Assembly (NCBI GenBank): GCA_035414245.1
Contig: DAONYH010000003.1
Location: 17,630 to 81,629 of the forward strand
Length of the DNA stretch: 64,000 bases
Source of the DNA: a bacterium
Lineage (GTDB): Bacteria; Patescibacteriota; Patescibacteriia; Patescibacteriales; UBA12465
Direction: 5' to 3'
In this document: in pieces, positions 3,857 through 58,059 of the stretch
How positions within the stretch are numbered: position 1 is the stretch's first letter
How the letters are laid out: the number at the start of each line of letters is the position of its first letter
The notes under the pieces: generated by a model
Databases searched by the model: none
The model's input: the letters and a program-made list of their open reading frames with translations, nothing else
What the model was told of the DNA's origin: nothing
Program-made: the position numbers and the translations under genes

Positions 3857-5026
3857 ATGAAAATGTCTAAAAATACTAACAACAAAAAAACTGGCCACCA
3901 AATTTTAGAAGGTTCCCGAGCCATCGCCTTAACAATTAAAAATATTGGTGTCCAAGTTGTTTCCGCTTATCCAATTACTCCTCAAACTCATATTGTTGAA
4001 GATCTGGCGCAATTTAAAGCTGATGGACAAGCTAATTATGAATATGCGCGCGCCGAAAGTGAATTTGCCGCAGCCTCAATTGTCTTAGGAGCAAGTGCCG
4101 CCGGTGTTAGAGCTTACAGTGCCACTAGTTCGCAAGGCTTACTACTAATGACTGAAGTTTTATACAACATTTCCGGTTTACGCTTGCCAGTAGTGATGAC
4201 ATGCGCTAATCGCTCCATTTCTTCACCAATTAATATTTGGAATGATCATGCCGATGTGATGGCTATTAGAGATAGTGGTTGGTTACAATTTTTTGCCGAA
4301 AATCATCAAGAAGCAGTTTATGCTCATTTATTAGCTTATAAAGTCGCCGAGCAAATTGGCTTGCCGGCCATAGTAAATGTTGATGGTTTTATTTTAACCC
4401 ATTCTTATGAACCGGTTTCTATTCCTGATAAAAAATTAATAAAAAAATACTTGCCGGACTATAAACCAGCCAAAGGCACTTTTCTTGACCCAAAAAATCC
4501 AGTTACTTTAGGAGCTCTTTTCGGGCCAGACTCTTATACCGGAGTTAGAAAAGATTTATACCAAGATTTTCAAACTAGCTTATCATTAATTAAAAAAGAA
4601 TACGCTTTACTTAAAAAAATATTTAAAATTAAAAATAACAGTGATGGTTTAATTGAATATACCGGACCAAAAAAACCAAAAACAATTTTAATCACCATGG
4701 GCTCATTAGCGGGCACGATTAAAACTGTCTTAACTCAATATCCGAATGTCGGTTTAATAAAAATCATGACTCTGCGCCCTTTTCCTGAACAAGAACTTAT
4801 TAAAGCAACGGCTTCTGGTTCCAATATTATAATTTTAGAAAAAGCGGTTAGCCCGGGCAGTGGTGGTCCTTTGACTTTAGAAATTAAAGCCGCTTTATCA
4901 GGTCAGAAAAAAAATATTAAAAATTATATTGTTGGTTTAGGGGGAAAAAATATTAGTGAAAAAGAAATAAGAGATATTATTGAAAAGGCGGAACAGAAAA
5001 ATAAAAATTTAATTTTTCAAAAATAA
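3857..5026 (+). CDS. porA: Pyruvate:ferredoxin oxidoreductase alpha subunit
   Basis: 389 aa. The N-terminal pyrimidine-binding domain (GSRAIALTIKNIGVQVVSAYPITPQT) and a transketolase-C-like C-terminus are typical of PorA. Confidence 0.8.
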   Translation: MKMSKNTNNKKTGHQILEGSRAIALTIKNIGVQVVSAYPITPQTHIVEDLAQFKADGQANYEYARAESEFAAASIVLGASAAGVRAYSATSSQGLLLMTEVLYNISGLRLPVVMTCANRSISSPINIWNDHADVMAIRDSGWLQFFAENHQEAVYAHLLAYKVAEQIGLPAIVNVDGFILTHSYEPVSIPDKKLIKKYLPDYKPAKGTFLDPKNPVTLGALFGPDSYTGVRKDLYQDFQTSLSLIKKEYALLKKIFKIKNNSDGLIEYTGPKKPKTILITMGSLAGTIKTVLTQYPNVGLIKIMTLRPFPEQELIKATASGSNIIILEKAVSPGSGGPLTLEIKAALSGQKKNIKNYIVGLGGKNISEKEIRDIIEKAEQKNKNLIFQK

Positions 5027-5039
5027 ATTAAAATAAAGT

Positions 5040-5576
5040 ATGCGTTTTTTAAACAGCAAAAAAAATAAATTCACTTTAATTATTAGTTTATTTATTTTTT
5101 TATTTTTTATTTTAAGTTTTAAAGTTGTTTATAGTGCTGATCTAATTAAATTTACTCCGCAAATACCTATTCCCGGGCCTAATTCTATTCCTGCTAATTC
5201 ACCGATTGGCTCAGAAGCAAACGGAAGTTTTAAAGTTGACTTATTAAGTAGGTACGTTAAATCTATATATGATTATTTAATTATCATTGCCGGTATTTTA
5301 GCGGCTGTGGTAATGATGGGCGGGGGCTTGCTTTGGCTCACTTCCGGTGGCAATGAAAGTCGAGTTACGCAAGCTAAAGATTTAATTTTCGGTAGTATAA
5401 TTGGCTTAGTCTTAGTATTTGCCTCTTACCTTATTTTAAATACGATTAATCCTGATTTATTAAACTTAAGTTCATTAGAAATGGAAACGGTTGCTCCAAA
5501 AAAAATTGAAGCTGGAGGAAGTGGTGGAAGCAGTGGAGGAGGTAGAAGCGGTGGAGGCGGCGGAGGAAGTTGGTAG
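5040..5576 (+). CDS. Pilin-like membrane protein (CPR TrbC/VirB2-like T4SS-pilin-type module) with a Gly/Ser-rich C-terminal tail
   Basis: 178 aa. N-terminal signal/TM (LIISLFIFLFFILSF), then the conserved module YDYLIIIAGILAAVVMMGGGLLWLTSGGNESRVTQAKDLIFGSIIGLVLVFASYLILNTINPDLLNL, and the tail GGSGGSSGGGRSGGGGGGSW. It is a paralog of the N-terminal half of the 6479-7435 product and lies between porA and porB with a 13-nt gap. Confidence 0.5.
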   Translation: MRFLNSKKNKFTLIISLFIFLFFILSFKVVYSADLIKFTPQIPIPGPNSIPANSPIGSEANGSFKVDLLSRYVKSIYDYLIIIAGILAAVVMMGGGLLWLTSGGNESRVTQAKDLIFGSIIGLVLVFASYLILNTINPDLLNLSSLEMETVAPKKIEAGGSGGSSGGGRSGGGGGGSW

Positions 5577-46629: not shown

Positions 46630-46703
46630 GGGCAATTAGCTCAGTTGGTTAGAGCGCAACACTGATAATGTTGAGGTCGGAGGTTCGAATCCTCCATTGC
46701 CCA
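46630..46703 (+). tRNA. tRNA-Ile (anticodon GAT)
   Basis: GGGCAATTAGCTCAGTTGGTTAGAGCGCAACACTGATAATGTTGAGGTCGGAGGTTCGAATCCTCCATTGCCCA. Anticodon loop CTGATAA. CCA is not encoded. Confidence 0.85.
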
Positions 46704-46759
46704 CTTTAACCGCCTTGGAGTGTAAATCACTTTTGAATCACTTTGAAGTGTGTTTGTGA

Positions 46760-46832
46760 CGCGGGATAGAGCAGTTGGCAGCTCGCCAGGCCCATAACCT
46801 GGAGGTCGTCGGTTCGAGTCCGACTCCCGCAA
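46760..46832 (+). tRNA. tRNA-Met (anticodon CAT), initiator-like (C1:A72 mismatch, A73)
   Basis: CGCGGGATAGAGCAGTTGGCAGCTCGCCAGGCCCATAACCTGGAGGTCGTCGGTTCGAGTCCGACTCCCGCAA. Anticodon loop CCCATAA. The 5' C opposite A at the acceptor end is a bacterial initiator hallmark. Confidence 0.75.
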
Positions 46833-46863
46833 CTAATAAAACGATTGAAAATTAAAAATATAT

Positions 46864-46938
46864 GCCTCGGTAGCTCAGTGGTAGAGCAAAGGACTGAAAA
46901 TCCTTGTGTCGTCAGTTCGATTCTGACCCGAGGCACCA
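46864..46938 (+). tRNA. tRNA-Phe (anticodon GAA), CCA encoded
   Basis: GCCTCGGTAGCTCAGTGGTAGAGCAAAGGACTGAAAATCCTTGTGTCGTCAGTTCGATTCTGACCCGAGGCACCA. Confidence 0.85.
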
Positions 46939-46981
46939 AAATAAAAATAAGTTCGATTTTTTAACGAACTATTTTTATATA

Positions 46982-47059
46982 CGGGGTGTGGCCCAGTTGG
47001 TCTAAGGCGTCTGGTTTGGGACCAGAAGATCGTGAGTTCAAATCTCGCCACCCCGACCA
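46982..47059 (+). tRNA. tRNA-Pro (anticodon TGG), CCA encoded
   Basis: CGGGGTGTGGCCCAGTTGGTCTAAGGCGTCTGGTTTGGGACCAGAAGATCGTGAGTTCAAATCTCGCCACCCCGACCA. C1:G72 is typical of bacterial tRNA-Pro. G37 is present. Confidence 0.85.
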
Positions 47060-47184: not shown

Positions 47185-47445
47185 ATGCCAAATAAGAAGT
47201 CTGCGGAAAAAGAATTACGCAAAAATATTAAAAGAAAAGCAGCTAATAAAACCTTTGCTGACAAATTAAAAGCAACTGTTAAGGCTAATATTAAACAAAT
47301 TAACGCTGGTGATAAAAGTGTAATTGAAAAAATACCTTTAACCATTAAAGCGATTGATAAGGCGGCTAAAAAAGGTGTTATTAAAAAAAATACCGCTAGC
47401 CGTAAAAAATCTCGCTTAATGAAACGCATTAATTCCCTGAAATAA
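47185..47445 (+). CDS. rpsT: 30S ribosomal protein S20
   Basis: 86 aa, very basic. MPNKKSAEKELRKNIKRKAANKTFADKLKAT is S20-like. Confidence 0.75.
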   Translation: MPNKKSAEKELRKNIKRKAANKTFADKLKATVKANIKQINAGDKSVIEKIPLTIKAIDKAAKKGVIKKNTASRKKSRLMKRINSLK

Positions 47446-47530
47446 TTTTTTTAATTCCTTAAAATAAATTTAATAAGTCACTCTTTCTTGGATACGGATT
47501 GGAACCCGTTTCTCGGTTAGAAGTAAATCT

Positions 47531-47896
47531 ATGTTAGATAAAAAAATCAAAGAAAAAATCATTAAAAAATTTCGTGTGCATGACACCGACACTGGTTCTT
47601 CGCAAGTTCAAATTGCTATTTTGACCGAAGAAATTAAACAGTTAACCGACCATTTAAAAAAACATAAACATGACTTCTCTTCTCGTCGTGGTTTGCTTAA
47701 AAAAGTGGGCGAGAGACGAAAATTATTAAAATACTTACAAAAAGAAAGCGCTGAACAATTTAAAGATTTGGCTGATAAACTAAAATTAAAAATAGCGCAA
47801 AAATTAGAAGAAGAGGAAGAAGAGGAAAAGAAAAAAGAAAAGAAATATATTAATCCTGATGAAGCTGAAGAAATTAAAGAAGATGAGTTAGAATAA
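47531..47896 (+). CDS. rpsO: 30S ribosomal protein S15 with a Lys/Glu-rich C-terminal extension
   Basis: 121 aa. [56 protein letters not shown] is the S15 core. An extra tail of about 30 aa ends [29 protein letters not shown]. Confidence 0.8.
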
Positions 47897-47901
47897 TAAT
47901 T

Positions 47902-48429
47902 ATGATAAAACATACCGAACAACGAGTGGGAATTTTAGTGGATGTTTCTAATATGTATCATTCCGCTAAAAATCTCTATGGACGAAAAGTGAATTTTAAA
48001 GAAATCTTACTAAAAGCAGTGGCTAACCGTAAGCTTATTCGGGCCACTGCTTATGCTATAAAGACCGAAAATCAAGAAGAGCTTCCCTTCACAGAGGCCT
48101 TAGAACAACAAGGATTTGAGGTCAAAATGAAAGATCTGCAAATTTTTGCCGGCGGCGTGAAAAAAGCTGACTGGGATGTTGGCATTGCTATTGATGCGAT
48201 TAAGCTAGCTGACAAGTTAGACGTGATTGTGCTTGTTTCTGGTGACGGAGATTATGTGCCTTTAGTTTCCTATCTGCAAAACAATAAAGGTTGCTTAGTT
48301 GAAATTATGGCTTTTAGAAAAACCTGTTCTGCAAAATTAATTGAGGAAGCAGATGATTTTATTGATCTTAGTTCTAGTCGTAAATTTTTGATTTATTCTA
48401 AATCTAAAGTAAACAAAACAAAAAAATAA
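47902..48429 (+). CDS. NYN-domain protein (LabA/DUF88-like predicted PIN-type RNase)
   Basis: 175 aa. VGILVDVSNMYHSAKNLYGRKVNFKEIL...IRATAYA...VLVSGDGDYVPLV is the NYN signature. It starts 6 nt after rpsO and lies before pnp. Confidence 0.65.
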   Translation: MIKHTEQRVGILVDVSNMYHSAKNLYGRKVNFKEILLKAVANRKLIRATAYAIKTENQEELPFTEALEQQGFEVKMKDLQIFAGGVKKADWDVGIAIDAIKLADKLDVIVLVSGDGDYVPLVSYLQNNKGCLVEIMAFRKTCSAKLIEEADDFIDLSSSRKFLIYSKSKVNKTKK

Positions 48430-48450
48430 TTAAAATATTAATAATTAATA

Positions 48451-48511
48451 GCCTGACCGGTAAATAGATAGTGCTGTAATAATTTACAGTCCTGTAATTT
48501 AGCGGCCAGGC
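48451..48511 (+). promoter_or_regulatory. Structured leader hairpin upstream of pnp (candidate RNase processing / autoregulatory element)
   Basis: GCCTGACCGgtaaatagatagtgCTGTAAtaatTTACAGtcctgtaatttagCGGCCAGGC: an outer roughly 9-bp stem (one A/C mismatch) enclosing a perfect inner 6-bp stem-loop. It lies 13 nt before the pnp ATG. Confidence 0.4.
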
Positions 48512-48523
48512 ACTAACAAACTT

Positions 48524-50794
48524 ATGGAAAAAATATTTAAAGCGGAGTGGCTTGGTCGCCCTCTCATTATCAAAACCGGAAAGGTTGCCAAACAAGCCGA
48601 TGCGGCGGTTTGGGTTCAATACGGTGAAACAGTTGTGCAAGCAACGGTTGTTCAAGCTAAAACTGAAAGAGAAGGAATTGATTTCTTTCCCCTAATGGTT
48701 GAGTTTGAGGAAAAACTTTACGCAGCAGGTATTATTAAAGGTTCGCGCTGGGTAAAACGCGAAGGTCGTCCAACTGATCAATCAATTTTAACTGGACGCA
48801 TGATTGATCGTTCAATCAGACCTTTATTTGGCAAAGAAGATAATCGTGACGTTCAAGTTATTATTACGGTGTTAGCGCTTGATCAAGAAAATGATTATGA
48901 CATTGTTTCTTTGTTGGCTGCTTCAGCTGCCCTATCAATTGCCGGTCTTGATTGGCAAGGACCGATTGGCGGAATTAGAGTTGGTTTGATTGAAGATAAA
49001 TTTATCTTTAATCCAACTTATGAAGAACAAACTAAAAGCGCGCTTGATTTAATTGTGGCGGGAACAGAAAAAAAAGTGATTATGATTGAAGCAGGAGCTA
49101 ATGAAGTTCAAGAAGATATAATGTTGCAAGCGATTATGGCTGGTCAAAAAGAAATGCAAGGAGCAATTAATTTAATCAAAGAATTACAAGCTGGAGTTGA
49201 AATTAAAAAAACTCCTCGTTTAGTAGCGGAAAAAACCGCTACTGAACTGGAAGCTGACCAAGAAAAAGAAAATCTCTTAAACTTAGGGAAGGCTTGGTTG
49301 GAAAAAAATATCAAAAATATTTTATTTGATAAAATTTACTATACAAAAGGCGAACGCAAAGCCGCTGTTTCCGCTATTAAAGAAGGTTTAGATGCTCATT
49401 TAAGTCAAGAAGGTTTGAGTACGGAAAAGCGTAATTTTATCATTAATAAATTAGTTGAAAAAATGGTAGAAGCAGAAGTAACACGTGCTATCATTGAAGA
49501 AAAAAAACGTGTTGATGGTCGTGCTCTAGATGAAATTAGAAATCTAAGCGCGGAAGTAGCAATTTTGCCTCGCGATCATGGTACTTCTCTTTTTTCACGC
49601 GGCGAAACTCAGGTGATGTCGATAGTCACTTTAGGCGCTCCCGGTTTAGAACAGTCTTTAGAAGGAATTGAAGGACAAAGCAAAAAAAGATTCATGCATC
49701 ATTATAATTTTCCTCCTTACTGTGTTGGTGAGGCCTCTCCTCTACGTGGGACAGGTCGTCGTGAAATCGGTCATGGTGCTTTAGCGGAAAAAGCTTTACT
49801 CCCAGTTATTCCAAACAAAGAAGAGTTTGCTTACGCAATCCGAGTAGTTAGTGAAACCATGGGTTCTAATGGTTCTTCATCCATGGCTTCCACTTGCGCC
49901 ACTACTTTAGCTTTAATGGATGCTGGCGTGCCAATCAAAAAACCGGTAGCGGGGATTGCCATGGGTCTTGCCTCCAATGCTGACATGAGTCGCTATGAAG
50001 TTTTAACTGATATTCAAGACCTAGAAGATGGCGAAGGCGGAATGGACTTTAAAATTACTGGAACTGATGCTGGTCTAACCGCTATCCAACTTGATACTAA
50101 AACTAATGGTTTAACTGAAGAAATAATTGCTAAAACTTTAACTCAAGGCAGAGCGGCTCTAAATCAAATTCTTCAAGTCATCACTGCTGCCCTTCCTGCT
50201 CCCCGAGCCGAGTTATCTAAATATGCGCCCCGCATTATCAGTTTTCATGTTGATCCGGAAAAAATCGGTTCAATTATTGGACCTGGAGGAAAAGTTATTA
50301 ATAAAATAATTGATGAGACCGGTGTTAGTATTGATATTGAAGATGATGGTTTAGTAATCATTTGTGGCGCTAACGTGGAAATGGTTGAAGAGGCTGTTCG
50401 CCAAGTGAAAGATATTGTTCATGTCTTTACGGTTGATGAAGTAATAAAAGGCAAGGTGGTAAGACTTTTGGACTTCGGCGCCTTTGTTGCTTTAAATGCT
50501 AATCAAGATGGTATGATTCATGTTAGTGAATTAGCTCCCTATCGCATTGATAAACCAGGCGACTTCCTTAGCATAGGTGATGAAGTAACAGTTAGAATTA
50601 AGGAAATTGATGAACAAGGTAGAATTAACTTAACCATGAAAAATTTAGCAGAAAACGCTCATCTTTACAAAGATGAAAGAGGTAAATCAAGCGGTCAAGC
50701 TAATTCGGGTGGTTTTGGTCGTTCTAGTCGATTTAATAATAATCGCTTGGGTGGTTCTCGCGGTGGCTTTAGAAGACAAATTAATAATAAATAA
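48524..50794 (+). CDS. pnp: Polyribonucleotide nucleotidyltransferase (PNPase)
   Basis: 756 aa. Two RNase PH domains, KH (IGPGGKVINKIIDETG), S1 (KGKVVRLLDFGAFVAL), and an RGG-like C-terminus. Confidence 0.9.
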   Translation: MEKIFKAEWLGRPLIIKTGKVAKQADAAVWVQYGETVVQATVVQAKTEREGIDFFPLMVEFEEKLYAAGIIKGSRWVKREGRPTDQSILTGRMIDRSIRPLFGKEDNRDVQVIITVLALDQENDYDIVSLLAASAALSIAGLDWQGPIGGIRVGLIEDKFIFNPTYEEQTKSALDLIVAGTEKKVIMIEAGANEVQEDIMLQAIMAGQKEMQGAINLIKELQAGVEIKKTPRLVAEKTATELEADQEKENLLNLGKAWLEKNIKNILFDKIYYTKGERKAAVSAIKEGLDAHLSQEGLSTEKRNFIINKLVEKMVEAEVTRAIIEEKKRVDGRALDEIRNLSAEVAILPRDHGTSLFSRGETQVMSIVTLGAPGLEQSLEGIEGQSKKRFMHHYNFPPYCVGEASPLRGTGRREIGHGALAEKALLPVIPNKEEFAYAIRVVSETMGSNGSSSMASTCATTLALMDAGVPIKKPVAGIAMGLASNADMSRYEVLTDIQDLEDGEGGMDFKITGTDAGLTAIQLDTKTNGLTEEIIAKTLTQGRAALNQILQVITAALPAPRAELSKYAPRIISFHVDPEKIGSIIGPGGKVINKIIDETGVSIDIEDDGLVIICGANVEMVEEAVRQVKDIVHVFTVDEVIKGKVVRLLDFGAFVALNANQDGMIHVSELAPYRIDKPGDFLSIGDEVTVRIKEIDEQGRINLTMKNLAENAHLYKDERGKSSGQANSGGFGRSSRFNNNRLGGSRGGFRRQINNK

Positions 50795-52666: not shown

Positions 52667-53668
52667 TTATTCTTTAGATTTAACTACCGACCAACCAGTA
52701 GCTGTTTCCTTTAAACGACCAATAATAGAAAAACCAGCTGCTCGTCGATGTCCCCCGCCATTAAATTGACGTGCCAACAAAGCTACATCAATCTCATCAG
52801 TATTAGTTCTTAAACTACCCTTCACTTTTCCCTCTTCTTCTCGTAAAAATAAAGCGACTTTAACTCCTGATAAATAACTAATAAAAGATGCAATGTCGCC
52901 AAAAATATCAGTCGCAGCCGCTCTTTCTTCAGCACTCAATAATTCTTTGAGTTCTTCATTAGTTAAGGCGGTATAAGCAAAACCGGTTTGCGGATTGAAT
53001 TTTAATTTTTCCAGAGCCCGACCCCAAACTTTGAGCGTGGACAAACTACTACTCCCTCTAACCTTACTACTTAATTTATTTAAAGAAGCGCCTTTAAGTA
53101 ACATCTTGGAAGCAATCGCCAATGCTTGGTGCGTAGCGTTAGCGTGAAGAAAATGACCAGTATCAGAAATTAAACCAATTAAAATACACTCCGCAACCGT
53201 TTTATTAATAGCTAAAGAATTAGCCACAAAAAAATCATAAATCACTTCCGTGGTAGAAGCTTTTTTCGGTAGCCTGATTTCTAAATCAGCAAATTTATCT
53301 TGAGGTTGATGATGATCAAATTCAATAATATAAGGTCGCTCTGGTAAAAGCAGTAAGTTATTAATTTCCTCAAGTAAACCCGTCCGCGCCAAAGAACCGC
53401 AATCTAAAATAATAATCAGGGAAAAATCTTCTAACTTGCCGGATATTGTTCCGGAAACTAGTTGTGAATGCGGAATGAAGTCATAAATACCAACTGGTTT
53501 ATTTTGCGCATAAGCGCTTTTTTTAATCTTTAAAGAATCTAAAAGCTCGCTCAAAGCGCCGATTGAAGCTAAAGCATCAGGGTCAGGATAATTATGCCCA
53601 ACCAGTAAAATTGATTGGGCATTTTTTATTTTTTGATAAGCTAATTGTAGTTTTTCACGCTCAGTCAT
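52667..53668 (-). CDS. DHH/DHHA1 phosphoesterase (NrnA-like oligoribonuclease / pAp phosphatase)
   Basis: 333 aa. LLVGHNYPDPDALASIGAL (DHH motif I), IILDCGS, DHHQP, and a DHHA1 GGGH motif (FNGGGHRRAAG). Confidence 0.7.
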   Translation of the reverse strand: MTEREKLQLAYQKIKNAQSILLVGHNYPDPDALASIGALSELLDSLKIKKSAYAQNKPVGIYDFIPHSQLVSGTISGKLEDFSLIIILDCGSLARTGLLEEINNLLLLPERPYIIEFDHHQPQDKFADLEIRLPKKASTTEVIYDFFVANSLAINKTVAECILIGLISDTGHFLHANATHQALAIASKMLLKGASLNKLSSKVRGSSSLSTLKVWGRALEKLKFNPQTGFAYTALTNEELKELLSAEERAAATDIFGDIASFISYLSGVKVALFLREEEGKVKGSLRTNTDEIDVALLARQFNGGGHRRAAGFSIIGRLKETATGWSVVKSKE

Positions 53669-53805: not shown

Positions 53806-54147
53806 TTATTTATCTTTATTTTCATTGGCCTGACGAATAATCTCTTCTAATTCGCTGGCTTCTTTTTCAGTCGCGTCAAATTCCCAAACTAATTTAGGTA
53901 GTTGACGCAAATTAGTTCTTTTTTTCAAAATCTCCACAATATTTTTAGTGCTGGCAATTAATTTTCTGAAAGCTGTTCCCGCTAATCTGTCTGGCAAAAC
54001 TGAAAAACCGACTTTAGCACGTTTTAAATCAGTTGAACAATCAACATAAGTAATAGTAATCAATGCTTCAGGCATTACTAATTCACGATTAACTGCTGAG
54101 GCTAATTCACTGAGTAACAAATCATTGATTTTATCAATCTTGGACAT
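53806..54147 (-). CDS. rbfA: Ribosome-binding factor A
   Basis: 113 aa. KH-like fold sequence (ITITYVDCSTDLKRAKVGFSVL...LRQLPKLVWEFD). It is immediately downstream of infB. Confidence 0.8.
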   Translation of the reverse strand: MSKIDKINDLLLSELASAVNRELVMPEALITITYVDCSTDLKRAKVGFSVLPDRLAGTAFRKLIASTKNIVEILKKRTNLRQLPKLVWEFDATEKEASELEEIIRQANENKDK

Positions 54148-56535: not shown

Positions 56536-58059
56536 ATGCAATTTTTAAATTATGCTCTGTACCTGGTTTTGGCTATTGGCGGTTTTTTTATTGGATATTT
56601 ATTCTACAAAAAATCAGCTGATACAAAAATCAATAGCGCCAAAGAAAGAGCTGACAAAATCGTTAATGAGGCGCGCATGAAGGAAAAAGAATTACTCTTG
56701 AAAGCTCAGGATAAGGCAATCAAAGTAATTGAAGAATCAAAACGTGAAGAATCACGAAGACGTAATGAAATTCAACAAATGCAAAAACGTCTAGAGCAAA
56801 GAGAAAATTCCTTTTCCCAAAAACTCTTAGAGTTACAAGACAAACAACAAAAACTTTACGACAAAGTGACAGAAGTCCAAGAAATTAAAGAGAAAATTAA
56901 AAGTATTCAAGAAGAACAATCAGCTAAGTTGGAAGAAGTATCTAAATTGAGTCGTGAAGAAGCAAAAGAGCTGCTAATAAAAGAAGTGGAGGAAAAATCA
57001 GCTGAAGATTTAATGATTCGTATCAGAAAACTGGAGCAAGAAAGTGAAGATAAAATTGAAGAGAAGTCACGAGATTTATTGGCTTCAGCTATGCAAAGAA
57101 TGGTTTCCTCTTACACAGTTGAACTTACCACTACTACTATTGATTTACCCAATGATGAAATGAAAGGGCGTATTATTGGTCGTGAAGGACGAAATATTAA
57201 AGCGATTGAGAACATGACTGGCGTGGAAATTATTGTTGATGACACCCCTAACGCTATTACTGTATCCGGTTTTTCCTTAATTAGACGTCATATTGCGAAA
57301 AAAACTCTGGAATATTTAATAAAAGACGGGCGTATCCATCCCACTAAAATTGAAGAAGCAGTGGAAAATGCTAAAAAAGATATTGCGATTGACATTAAAA
57401 AAGCAGGTGAAGAGGCGATGTATGAAGTTGGCGTCACCGGCTTTGATCCGAAATTAATTCAAATTTTAGGACGTTTAAAATACCGCACTAGTTATGGCCA
57501 AAATGCTTTACGCCATTCAATTGAGGTCGCTCATTTATCCGCTATGTTAGCTAACCAACTTGGAGCTGATGTTACCTTAGCTAAAAAAGGCGGCTTACTT
57601 CATGACATTGGCAAAGCGGTTGATCATGAAGTTCAGGGTAACCATACTGAAATTGGCCGTGACATAGCCAAGAAATTTAACTTGCCACCGGAAATAATTG
57701 CTCCTATTGAAACTCATCATGAAGATCATCCTGCTTCTTTAATCTCGGTCATTGTTAAAGTAGCTGATGCCATCTCTTCTGCTCGTCCGGGTGCGCGCAG
57801 TGATAGCTTTGAAAACTATTTACAACGCTTAGAGGAGTTAGAAAAGATTGCTTTAAGCTTTGAAGGCATAGAAAAAGCCTATGCCATTCAAGCTGGGCGC
57901 GAAGTGCGCATCTTTGTTCACCCTGAGGAAATAAATGACCTCAAAGCACATAATTTGGCTAGAGATATTGCAAAAAAGATAGAAAATGAGTTAAAATACC
58001 CAGGGGAGATTAAAATCAATGTAATTCGGGAAATGCGAGTCACTGAATATGCCCGCTAA
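56536..58059 (+). CDS. rny: Ribonuclease Y
   Basis: 507 aa. N-terminal TM, long coiled coil, KH domain (IIGREGRNIKAIENMTGV), and HD domain (LLHDIGKAVDHE). Confidence 0.85.
   Translation: MQFLNYALYLVLAIGGFFIGYLFYKKSADTKINSAKERADKIVNEARMKEKELLLKAQDKAIKVIEESKREESRRRNEIQQMQKRLEQRENSFSQKLLELQDKQQKLYDKVTEVQEIKEKIKSIQEEQSAKLEEVSKLSREEAKELLIKEVEEKSAEDLMIRIRKLEQESEDKIEEKSRDLLASAMQRMVSSYTVELTTTTIDLPNDEMKGRIIGREGRNIKAIENMTGVEIIVDDTPNAITVSGFSLIRRHIAKKTLEYLIKDGRIHPTKIEEAVENAKKDIAIDIKKAGEEAMYEVGVTGFDPKLIQILGRLKYRTSYGQNALRHSIEVAHLSAMLANQLGADVTLAKKGGLLHDIGKAVDHEVQGNHTEIGRDIAKKFNLPPEIIAPIETHHEDHPASLISVIVKVADAISSARPGARSDSFENYLQRLEELEKIALSFEGIEKAYAIQAGREVRIFVHPEEINDLKAHNLARDIAKKIENELKYPGEIKINVIREMRVTEYAR

What the first reader, a model, noticed from the sequence alone, without database searches (positions are those of the whole stretch)
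47902..48523. NYN-domain predicted RNase inserted into the rpsO-pnp operon, followed by a 61-nt nested hairpin leader before pnp
rpsO and pnp are classically adjacent, with an RNase III-processed autoregulatory leader between them. Here a 175-aa NYN/LabA-like (PIN-fold) protein starts 6 nt after rpsO. The pnp leader that follows folds into a long nested hairpin (GCCTGACCG...CGGCCAGGC around CTGTAAtaatTTACAG). A dedicated predicted nuclease co-transcribed with PNPase and S15 suggests an alternative mRNA-decay or leader-processing module, perhaps substituting for RNase III control in this lineage.
Basis: partly seen in the sequence, partly recalled or inferred. Interest (0 to 1): 0.55.

Follow-up and report, generated by a model that had tools for sequence, protein, structure and literature searches.

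The report
Conserved rpsO–NYN nuclease–pnp operon, Patescibacteria
A small predicted RNA-cutting enzyme sits between the ribosomal protein S15 gene and the PNPase gene; this layout, and a structured RNA hairpin in front of PNPase, are conserved across many ultra-small Patescibacteria, which points to an unstudied core RNA-processing module rather than a local insertion.

Summary
rpsO is at 47531-47896. A 175-aa full-length NYN (PF01936) protein is at 47902-48429. A 61-nt hairpin is at 48451-48511, and pnp is at 48524-50794.

The interpretation needs revising in three ways.

1. The NYN gene is not a local insertion. All 80 species-level relatives fetched have S15, then NYN, then PNPase. NYN is as conserved as S15 (71-90% identity) and more conserved than PNPase. 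More distant Patescibacteria (55-65% identity) keep S15-NYN or NYN-PNPase adjacency.

2. The hairpin is a real conserved RNA motif. It has 25 base pairs, 92% of cells are paired, and 17 pairs show compensatory changes. There is one copy in the window and no Rfam match. It stays with pnp (median 12 nt before the ATG), not with NYN.

3. Replacement of RNase III is unlikely. A 2025 survey reports rnc among the genes retained in at least 90% of CPR genomes.

Best reading: an S15-operator-like leader, rpsO, a translationally coupled and catalytically intact LabA-type NYN endoribonuclease that probably supplies PNPase with 3' ends, then a pnp leader hairpin analogous to the RNase III-processed leaders of E. 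coli and Streptomyces. No bacterial member of this NYN group has been tested for nuclease activity, so the substrates are inferred. Verdict: a new variant of a known kind, of moderate to high interest.

The parts
47481..47522 (+). Conserved rpsO leader element resembling an S15 operator. An inner hairpin is flanked by invariant CUUGG and CUCGG, which form C-G, U.G, G.U and G-C pairs, i.e. a G.U/G-C motif.
   Evidence: Alignment A4 of 50 relatives: pairs 19-53, 22-50 and 23-49 are invariant in all 50 and pair 20-52 is U.G in 48 of 50; the outer and inner helices covary (7 of 11 pairs have compensatory changes). There is a weak sub-threshold Rfam S15-leader hit at 47479-47584 (16.3 bits against 39.5). 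The sequences are visible.
47531..47896 (+). rpsO, ribosomal protein S15 (121 aa), with a roughly 35-aa Glu-rich C-terminal extension.
   Evidence: Pfam and TIGR00952 hits. The acidic tail is present in all relatives examined.
47902..48429 (+). NYN-domain protein (175 aa) of the LabA/COG1432 type: a predicted metal-dependent endoribonuclease with a short basic tail.
   Evidence: PF01936 E 4e-35. PDB 2QIP E 3e-25. AF2 pLDDT 92 and Foldseek matches to 2QIP and MARF1. D14, N17, D115 and D117 are invariant. The spacer after rpsO is 5 nt, and 1-10 nt in most relatives.
48451..48511 (+). Conserved pnp-leader hairpin of 25 pairs. It has an internal loop with invariant A48466 and A48496, a 1x1 mismatch, and a variable apical loop.
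   Evidence: Fold z = -5. Covariation. Covariance model R1 scores 80.4 bits here and at most 16 bits elsewhere on the + strand of the window. G.U pairs and the lower score on the reverse strand (39 bits) indicate a + strand RNA. No Rfam family matches.
48512..48523 (+). 12-nt A-rich spacer without a Shine-Dalgarno sequence, between the hairpin and the pnp start codon.
   Evidence: Sequence. The distance is constrained in relatives (median 12 nt, IQR 10-16). Almost no gene in the window has an SD sequence.
48524..50794 (+). pnp, polynucleotide phosphorylase (756 aa), with an Arg/Gly-rich basic C-terminal tail.
   Evidence: NF008805 at 854 bits. Pfam RNase_PH x2, KH and S1. The tail is conserved in relatives.

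Best explanation
This is the Patescibacteria (CPR) version of the rpsO-pnp operon. It has four conserved parts: an S15-operator-like leader, rpsO, a tightly coupled gene for a LabA/COG1432-type NYN endoribonuclease, and pnp preceded by a conserved leader hairpin.

Shown here: the gene order, the tight rpsO-NYN spacing, the very high conservation of NYN, the intact acidic active site and PIN-like fold, and the covarying hairpin anchored about 12 nt upstream of the pnp start codon.

Inferred:
(1) NYN is made together with S15 and falls under the same S15 feedback, because the 5-nt spacer in a genome without Shine-Dalgarno sequences implies translational coupling.
(2) NYN is an active Mg2+/Mn2+-dependent endonuclease for single-stranded RNA, like MARF1 NYN. 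If it cuts as metal-dependent PIN-like nucleases generally do, its cuts leave 3'-OH ends, the entry sites that PNPase needs, and 5'-monophosphate ends for RNase J. NYN plus PNPase would then form a minimal housekeeping module for RNA decay or processing (mRNA turnover, and possibly trimming of rRNA precursors).
(3) The hairpin is a cis-regulatory element of pnp that works like the long leader stem-loops of E. coli and Streptomyces pnp. It would be a double-stranded processing and stability site, most likely for RNase III, which CPR genomes retain, and it would let PNPase control its own mRNA. It is not primarily the target of NYN.
For: Synteny: all 77 loci where downstream sequence was available have S15, NYN and PNPase on one strand; three more loci end before pnp. 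S15-NYN gaps are mostly 1-10 nt.

Conservation: NYN is 71-90% identical across these loci, against 53-82% for PNPase and 64-95% for S15. At least 8000 clusters at 90% identity were returned for each of two queries, and the named hits are Patescibacteria.

Deeper lineages keep the association: P0310 (65% identity) has S15-NYN-PNPase; P0127 has S15-NYN-x-PNPase; P0137 has NYN overlapping PNPase by 13 nt; P0122, P0359 and P0325 have S15-NYN.

Enzyme: PF01936 matched over its full length, four invariant catalytic-type residues, an AF2 model at pLDDT 92 that matches 2QIP and the proven nuclease MARF1 NYN. MARF1 NYN is a metal-dependent ssRNA endonuclease (PMC6294520).

Hairpin: covariation; one copy per locus, always in the pnp leader on the + strand. 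The distance to the ATG is median 12 nt, while the distance from the NYN stop ranges from 3 to 955 nt. The hairpin persists next to pnp when other ORFs are inserted after NYN. It is also found in the 65%-identity lineage L090 (37 bits, E 3e-8), and it is absent where pnp is not downstream.

Precedent: RNase III-cleaved stem-loops in the pnp leader of E. coli and S. coelicolor (PMC5029454, PMC5872136). RNase III, RNase J and PNPase are retained in at least 90% of CPR genomes (PMC12641178). RNase Y is also encoded in the window. There is no terminator-like site and no strong promoter-like site between NYN and pnp.
Against: No bacterial COG1432/LabA-type NYN protein has been shown to be a nuclease (PMC5499597; still described as unclear in 2024-2025 papers).

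Gene adjacency shows co-expression, not a shared pathway.

In several lineages NYN stays with S15 while pnp is elsewhere. The more basic link may therefore be to S15 and the ribosome rather than to PNPase.

Cleavage of the hairpin by RNase III is argued by analogy only. Its invariant unpaired adenines and conserved sequence suggest a more sequence-specific partner than RNase III. I could not confirm rnc in this genome.

In 15 of 74 loci the hairpin lies more than 50 nt from the pnp start, so a strict translational-operator geometry is not universal.
Confidence: 0.5

Rival explanations
1. NYN is a ribosome-linked nuclease. It would be made with S15 and act on 16S rRNA precursors or on ribosome-bound RNA, either as an unrecognised CPR ribosome-biogenesis factor or as a Rae1-like nuclease acting at the ribosome. 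PNPase would only be a neighbour or the 3'-trimming partner.
For: The S15-NYN pair is the most persistent linkage: 7 of 9 deeper CPR contexts, sometimes with start and stop overlapping. NYN is conserved at the level of a ribosomal protein. Many homologues carry long Lys/Ser-rich basic disordered tails like the extensions of ribosomal proteins. NYN would be co-regulated through an S15-operator-like leader. CPR genomes lack about half of the known biogenesis factors, including RimM, RimP and mostly Era (PMC12641178). LabA/NYN proteins co-purify with ribosomes and Rbp3 in Synechocystis (PMC12232666).
Against: There is no direct evidence of ribosome binding. One lineage has NYN overlapping pnp with no S15 upstream. 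The protein is not of the YacP/Rae1 type (no NYN_YacP hit). This reading overlaps with the best explanation and does not exclude it.
Confidence: 0.25
2. One reading: NYN is the dedicated enzyme that cleaves the pnp leader, at or next to the hairpin. It would uncouple pnp from rpsO-NYN and set PNPase levels, doing the job of RNase III.
For: The enzyme and the RNA are encoded side by side in at least 74 species-level loci. The hairpin has invariant unpaired A residues and conserved sequence, which suggests a specific protein partner. Single-stranded AU-rich flanks and an apical loop are available to an ssRNA nuclease.
Against: The hairpin follows pnp and not NYN. NYN is just as conserved where no hairpin is found and pnp is not adjacent (L081, L087, L091, L092), and where NYN overlaps pnp with no spacer (L088). 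RNase III is retained in CPR. A single cis target would not explain conservation at the level of a ribosomal protein.
Confidence: 0.15
3. The hairpin acts without RNase III. It could be a 5'-proximal stabiliser or a guide structure (for example positioning an RNase Y cut in the upstream AU-rich spacer and then blocking RNase J). Or it could be a translational operator bound by PNPase itself, next to a start site without a Shine-Dalgarno sequence.
For: The 3' end of the hairpin is 10-16 nt from the ATG in most loci. The genome lacks SD sequences, so access to an unstructured start region should govern initiation. RNase Y is encoded in the window. E. coli PNPase can repress its own translation without RNase III (PMC5029454).
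Against: Fifteen of 74 loci have the hairpin 50-190 nt upstream. No binding data exist. At 25 bp or more, the helix is an adequate RNase III substrate by length.
Confidence: 0.2
4. The NYN protein is not a housekeeping enzyme. It would be a defence or toxin-type PIN-like nuclease, or a non-catalytic LabA-like regulator, that happens to sit in this operon.
For: There is a partial match to the PADLOC 'NYN, LabA-like' model (E 3e-13, covering only residues 62-158). LabA was originally described as a regulator of circadian clock output.
Against: The gene has a fixed position inside a ribosomal-protein/PNPase operon in every relative. It is extremely conserved, with intact catalytic residues. It has no partner antitoxin or defence genes and no mobile-element context.
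Confidence: 0.04

Closest known systems
E. coli and Streptomyces rpsO-pnp operon, with an RNase III-processed stem-loop in the pnp leader and PNPase autoregulation
   Same: rpsO lies upstream of pnp on one strand. A long, stable stem-loop sits in the pnp 5' leader. An S15-operator-like element precedes rpsO.
   Different: A third, highly conserved gene (NYN) lies between rpsO and pnp and is translationally coupled to rpsO. The hairpin has no sequence or Rfam relationship to the enterobacterial one, lies about 12 nt from the start codon, and carries invariant unpaired adenines. The genome does not use Shine-Dalgarno sequences. Cleavage by RNase III is untested.
NYN.COG1432 / LabA-like group of PF01936 (representative structure 2QIP, VPA0982 of Vibrio parahaemolyticus; cyanobacterial LabA)
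   Same: Full-length PF01936 match, about 33-45% identity to 2QIP, the same fold, and the same conserved Asp residues.
   Different: The group has no defined biochemical function. Members described so far are stand-alone genes, fused to OST-HTH domains, or next to tRNA/rRNA-modification genes. The fixed rpsO-NYN-pnp context and the very slow evolution of this clade were not found in the literature I searched.
MARF1 NYN domain (eukaryotic; PDB 5YAA, 6FDL)
   Same: Same Pfam family and fold (Foldseek E about 5e-7). It has an acidic metal-binding pocket and is a proven Mg/Mn-dependent ssRNA endonuclease acting in mRNA decay.
   Different: Only 14-17% identity. MARF1 is a large multidomain protein recruited through RRM and LOTUS domains. 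The window protein is a bare domain with a 10-residue basic tail.
Rae1/YacP (B. subtilis ribosome-dependent NYN endonuclease)
   Same: A small bacterial NYN-superfamily nuclease functionally tied to the ribosome and to mRNA decay.
   Different: It belongs to a different family (NYN_YacP, PF05991), which was not hit here. It also has a different gene neighbourhood.

Membership tests
NYN domain, PF01936 (LabA/COG1432 group) | Match to the family HMM above the curated threshold over the full domain | tested here: met
   121.8 bits against a cutoff of 24.2, model positions 1-144 of 145. 2QIP E 3e-25.
NYN domain, PF01936 (LabA/COG1432 group) | Conserved acidic residues predicted to bind the catalytic metal | tested here: met
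   D14, N17, D115 and D117 are invariant, and D90, D92 and D98 are kept in at least 90% of 85 homologues down to 38% identity.
NYN domain, PF01936 (LabA/COG1432 group) | PIN-like alpha/beta fold | tested here: met
   AF2 pLDDT 92. Foldseek 2QIP TM 0.84/0.91; MARF1 NYN TM 0.60-0.75.
NYN domain, PF01936 (LabA/COG1432 group) | Ribonuclease activity | not testable with these tools
   Shown only for eukaryotic MARF1. Not shown for any bacterial COG1432 member.
TIGR00288 (archaeal-type NYN hypothetical equivalog) | Score above the NCBIfam cutoff | tested here: not met
   28.5 bits against a cutoff of 178.
NYN_YacP / Rae1 (PF05991) | Match to the family HMM | tested here: not met
   No hit at E <= 0.01; only NYN and a weak PIN7 hit were reported.
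RNase III-processed pnp leader (E. coli / Streptomyces type) | Long stem-loop within the pnp 5' leader, downstream of rpsO | tested here: met
   A helix of 25 pairs at 48451-48511, conserved and covarying.
RNase III-processed pnp leader (E. coli / Streptomyces type) | Cleavage by RNase III and PNPase-dependent autoregulation | not testable with these tools
   Only indirect: rnc is retained in at least 90% of CPR genomes according to PMC12641178. No rnc was found in the 64-kb window.
Any Rfam 15 family (including the S15 leader RF00114) | Score at or above the gathering threshold | tested here: not met
   Only tRNAs pass. The hairpin gets no hit even at E <= 10. The S15 leader scores 16.3 against 39.5 bits upstream of rpsO.
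Intrinsic (rho-independent) terminator | GC-rich stem followed by a U tract | tested here: not met
   No terminator-like site in 48430-48523. The hairpin is followed by ACUAACAAACUU.
S15 translational operator (mimic of 16S rRNA helix 22) | G.U/G-C motif in a helix upstream of, or overlapping, the rpsO start | tested here: met
   G.U followed by G-C is invariant in all 50 sequences (columns 22-50 and 23-49 of A4). This applies to the rpsO leader at 47481-47522, not to the pnp hairpin. S15 binding itself is untested.
Anti-phage defence NYN (PADLOC PDLC01154) | Full-length match and a defence-island context | tested here: not met
   The match is partial (residues 62-158 against profile positions 202-297 of 310). 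The context is a housekeeping operon.

The most novel reading that the evidence does not exclude
The NYN protein is a so-far unrecognised core endoribonuclease of Patescibacteria, with close homologues (about 55% identity) in DPANN archaea. It would be produced in step with S15 and would work with PNPase as a minimal 'endonuclease plus 3' exonuclease' machine for mRNA decay and/or 16S rRNA maturation, compensating for the missing RNase E and biogenesis factors of these reduced cells. The acidic S15 tail, the basic PNPase tail and the pnp leader hairpin (a new RNA motif) would be co-evolved parts of the same module.
Probability: 0.35. Interest if true: 0.8.

Novelty: new variant of a known kind. 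Interest (0 to 1): 0.6.

Why it matters
Patescibacteria make up a large share of bacterial diversity. They have tiny genomes and lack many RNases and ribosome-biogenesis factors, and how they process and degrade RNA is largely unknown. A 175-aa nuclease-fold protein that evolves as slowly as a ribosomal protein, and that is locked between S15 and PNPase, is a strong candidate for a missing housekeeping RNase. It would also be the first functional handle on the large bacterial LabA/COG1432 NYN group, which has no assigned biochemistry. The hairpin adds a well-supported candidate cis-regulatory RNA family (the pnp leader of Patescibacteria) that is not in Rfam. Both can be tested directly with recombinant protein and in vitro transcripts.

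Tried and rejected
- Rfam at gathering and at E <= 10: nothing for the hairpin.
- Hairpin as a repeat or mobile element: rejected. It occurs once in 64 kb with filters off, and the next best hit is 16 bits.
- Hairpin as a terminator: rejected, because there is no U tract.
- Hairpin as a mimic of the S15 site or as a K-turn: rejected by inspection. It has no tandem G.U/G-C pair and no G.A pairs. The S15-like motif is instead in the rpsO leader.
- Internal promoter for pnp: no strong candidate. The AT-rich sequence makes weak matches uninformative.
- RNase III in the window or in the 89 fetched loci, by signature motif: none found.
- First AF2 run with a shallow alignment (all sequences at least 81% identical): poor, pLDDT 58. 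Repeated with a diverse alignment: pLDDT 92.
- Looked for the conserved unknown membrane protein that follows NYN (or follows pnp) in other CPR lineages. It is absent from the window and from the 80 close loci.
- Literature searches for NYN with Patescibacteria, CPR, Saccharibacteria, rpsO or PNPase found no description of this arrangement.

Full report
OBSERVATION. The window is AT-rich (34% GC). Around the finding, reading on the + strand, it carries four tRNAs (46630-47059), rpsT (47185-47445), rpsO (47531-47896), a 175-aa ORF (47902-48429), a 94-nt spacer, and pnp (48524-50794), followed by rpsP, a KhpA-type KH protein and trmD. The 175-aa ORF matches Pfam NYN (PF01936) over the whole model (E 4e-35).

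THE GENE ORDER IS ANCESTRAL. A scan of one genome per species returned at least 570 relatives, and the best 80 loci were kept (NYN 71-90% identical). They are annotated as Falkowbacteria, Parcubacteria, Buchananbacteria or 'Patescibacteria group'. tblastn with the window's proteins shows S15, NYN and PNPase on one strand in every locus that extends far enough. The S15-NYN gap is 1-10 nt in most loci, and the NYN-pnp gap is usually 75-150 nt. NYN (71-90% identity) is as conserved as S15 (64-95%) and more conserved than PNPase (53-82%), S20 or S16. A search of 5.8 billion proteins hit the 8000-candidate ceiling, and all of the top 120 hits were at least 81% identical.

An exhaustive search of 50%-identity representatives found 160 clusters at E <= 1e-30. 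Many relatives at 50-60% identity carry long Lys/Ser/Asn-rich disordered tails, with no second Pfam domain. Their gene contexts are as follows.
- P0310 (65% identity, 'Pacebacteria'): S15-NYN-PNPase.
- P0127: S15-NYN-unknown-PNPase.
- P0137: NYN overlapping PNPase by 13 nt, with no S15 upstream.
- P0122, P0359, P0325: S15-NYN followed by an unknown membrane protein.
- P0121: S15-NYN-acetyltransferase.
- P0125 (a recoded, 23% GC lineage): NYN followed by the same membrane protein.
- P0162: from a Nanoarchaeota (DPANN) MAG, next to PolB.
- P0131: next to Fe-S assembly genes.

The association with rpsO and with pnp is therefore old and recurrent within Patescibacteria. The rpsO-NYN pair is the most persistent element.

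THE PROTEIN. The closest solved structure is 2QIP (VPA0982, 'unknown function'; E 3e-25). With a diverse 85-sequence alignment, AlphaFold2 gives pLDDT 92. Foldseek finds 2QIP (TM 0.84/0.91) and then the MARF1 NYN domains (E about 5e-7). D14, N17, D115 and D117 are invariant, and D90, W91, D92 and D98 are kept in at least 90% of homologues down to 38% identity. These are residues of the kind that bind the catalytic metal in PIN-like nucleases. MARF1 NYN is a proven Mg/Mn-dependent endonuclease for single-stranded RNA (PMC6294520). The bacterial LabA/COG1432 group to which this protein belongs had 'function unknown' and no nuclease study in the 2017 PIN-superfamily classification (PMC5499597), and its role is still described as unclear in 2024-2025 papers. 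It is not of the YacP/Rae1 type, does not reach the TIGR00288 cutoff, and matches a PADLOC defence model only in part.

THE HAIRPIN. Iterated nhmmer and then a covariance model found the element in 74 of the 80 loci. It is always in the NYN-pnp spacer and always on the + strand. On a 60-sequence alignment, the 25-pair structure has 92.1% of cells paired, against 32-42% for slid partners. Seventeen pairs have compensatory changes, and the covariation score is 0.425 against 0.207 for shuffles (0 of 500 shuffles reach it). Many G.U pairs, and a much lower score on the reverse strand (80 against 39 bits), show that it works as + strand RNA.

The apical loop tolerates insertions of up to 43 nt. The lower and middle stem, an internal loop with invariant adenines (48466 and 48496) and a 1x1 mismatch are conserved. 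There is one copy in the window, the next best hit scores 16 bits with filters off, and no Rfam family matches.

The distance from the end of the hairpin to the pnp ATG has a median of 12 nt (IQR 10-16; 59 of 74 loci at 20 nt or less). The distance from the NYN stop ranges from 3 to 955 nt. Where extra ORFs or sequence are inserted after NYN, the hairpin usually stays beside pnp. The motif is also present in the NYN-pnp spacer of the 65%-identity lineage L090 (37 bits, E 3e-8). It is absent where pnp is not downstream, and absent where NYN overlaps pnp. It is therefore a pnp leader element, not an appendage of NYN.

HOW IT MOST LIKELY WORKS. Upstream of rpsO there is a second conserved RNA (about 47481-47522). 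Its invariant CUUGG/CUCGG arms form a G.U/G-C motif, the known S15 recognition signature (established knowledge), around a covarying hairpin. Almost none of the 52 genes examined in the window has a Shine-Dalgarno sequence. The 5-nt rpsO-NYN junction therefore implies that NYN is translated by ribosomes coming off rpsO, which places NYN under the same S15 feedback (inference).

NYN has an intact active site and belongs to a family whose tested member cuts ssRNA. If it cuts as metal-dependent PIN-like nucleases generally do, such cuts leave 3'-OH ends, the substrate PNPase needs, and 5'-P ends for RNase J (inference from general enzymology). The window also encodes RNase Y and an NrnA-like DHH protein.

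The pnp hairpin resembles in role the long leader stem-loops that RNase III cleaves to start PNPase autoregulation in E. coli and Streptomyces (PMC5029454, PMC5872136). [quoted passage not shown] The idea that NYN stands in for a missing RNase III is therefore unlikely, although I could not inspect the rest of this genome.

The main alternatives are three. NYN may act chiefly at the ribosome or on rRNA precursors. NYN may itself process the leader. The hairpin may act as a 5' stabiliser or as an operator bound by PNPase, without RNase III. These are listed with their evidence in the rival explanations.

NOVELTY. The rpsO-pnp operon with a leader stem-loop, and the NYN domain family, are both known. 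Four things were not found in the open literature searched or in Rfam: the fixed three-gene arrangement, the ribosomal-protein-level conservation of this NYN clade in Patescibacteria, its DPANN relatives, and the covarying pnp-leader motif. I rate it a new variant of a known kind, with interest 0.6.

Noticed in passing
window 47481-47522 (+): A conserved structured leader upstream of rpsO. Its invariant CUUGG...CUCGG arms form a G.U/G-C motif around a covarying hairpin, so it is probably an S15 autoregulatory operator of a type not in Rfam (RF00114 scores only 16 bits).
   Followed up: partly
window 47531-47896, about residues 88-121 of S15: S15 carries a roughly 35-aa Glu/Lys-rich acidic C-terminal extension (…[16 protein letters not shown]…). 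It is conserved in all 80 close relatives but absent from more distant CPR S15 proteins (87-92 aa).
   Followed up: partly
window about 50650-50791, C-terminus of PNPase: PNPase ends in a roughly 45-aa Arg/Gly/Ser-rich basic disordered tail (…GGFGRSSRFNNNRLGGSRGGFRRQINNK). It is conserved in kind across the clade and is opposite in charge to the S15 tail.
   Followed up: partly
whole window: Almost no gene has a Shine-Dalgarno sequence. The regions upstream of start codons are AT-rich and unstructured, so translation initiation appears to be SD-independent.
   Followed up: partly
window 56536-58059 (+); 52667-53668 (-); 53806-54147 (-): RNase Y, an NrnA-like DHH/DHHA1 phosphoesterase and RbfA are encoded nearby. 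The presence of RbfA is consistent with what the 2025 survey reports for class ABY1.
   Followed up: partly
L081 4771-5775; L087 4802-5602; L091 4136-4999; L092 4217-5341; L090 6251-7204: In other Patescibacteria lineages, a conserved unknown protein (266-374 aa; charged N-terminus, one predicted transmembrane helix, conserved C-terminal domain; no Pfam match on record) directly follows NYN, or follows pnp in L090. It is absent from the window and its close relatives.
   Followed up: partly
L087 4001-4789 (NYN gene, codon 93): In a recoded lineage with 23% GC, the codon for the nearly invariant Trp of the ADWDVG motif is UGA. Under genetic code 25 this reads as Gly, whereas the conserved residue would suggest Trp.
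   Followed up: no
L084 (GCA_018815145.1, Nanoarchaeota MAG), gene 4001-5242: DPANN archaea encode NYN proteins about 55% identical to the Patescibacteria ones, with long basic tails. This suggests sharing or transfer between the two groups of ultra-small cells.
   Followed up: no
L081, L090, L091, L092 and the P0127 locus, upstream of rpsO: A XerC/D-type tyrosine recombinase gene lies divergently just upstream of rpsO in several distant Patescibacteria lineages. In the window, rpsT and a tRNA cluster occupy that place instead.
   Followed up: no
L013, L021, L035 (spacer after NYN): Some relatives have an additional GC-rich hairpin followed by a T run, which looks like a terminator, between the NYN stop and the conserved pnp hairpin. 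This suggests that pnp is expressed by read-through, as in E. coli.
   Followed up: no
window 48284-48329 (-): A sub-threshold Rfam 'Histone3 stem-loop' hit (22.7 against 34 bits) lies inside the NYN coding region on the opposite strand. It is almost certainly a chance match.
   Followed up: no
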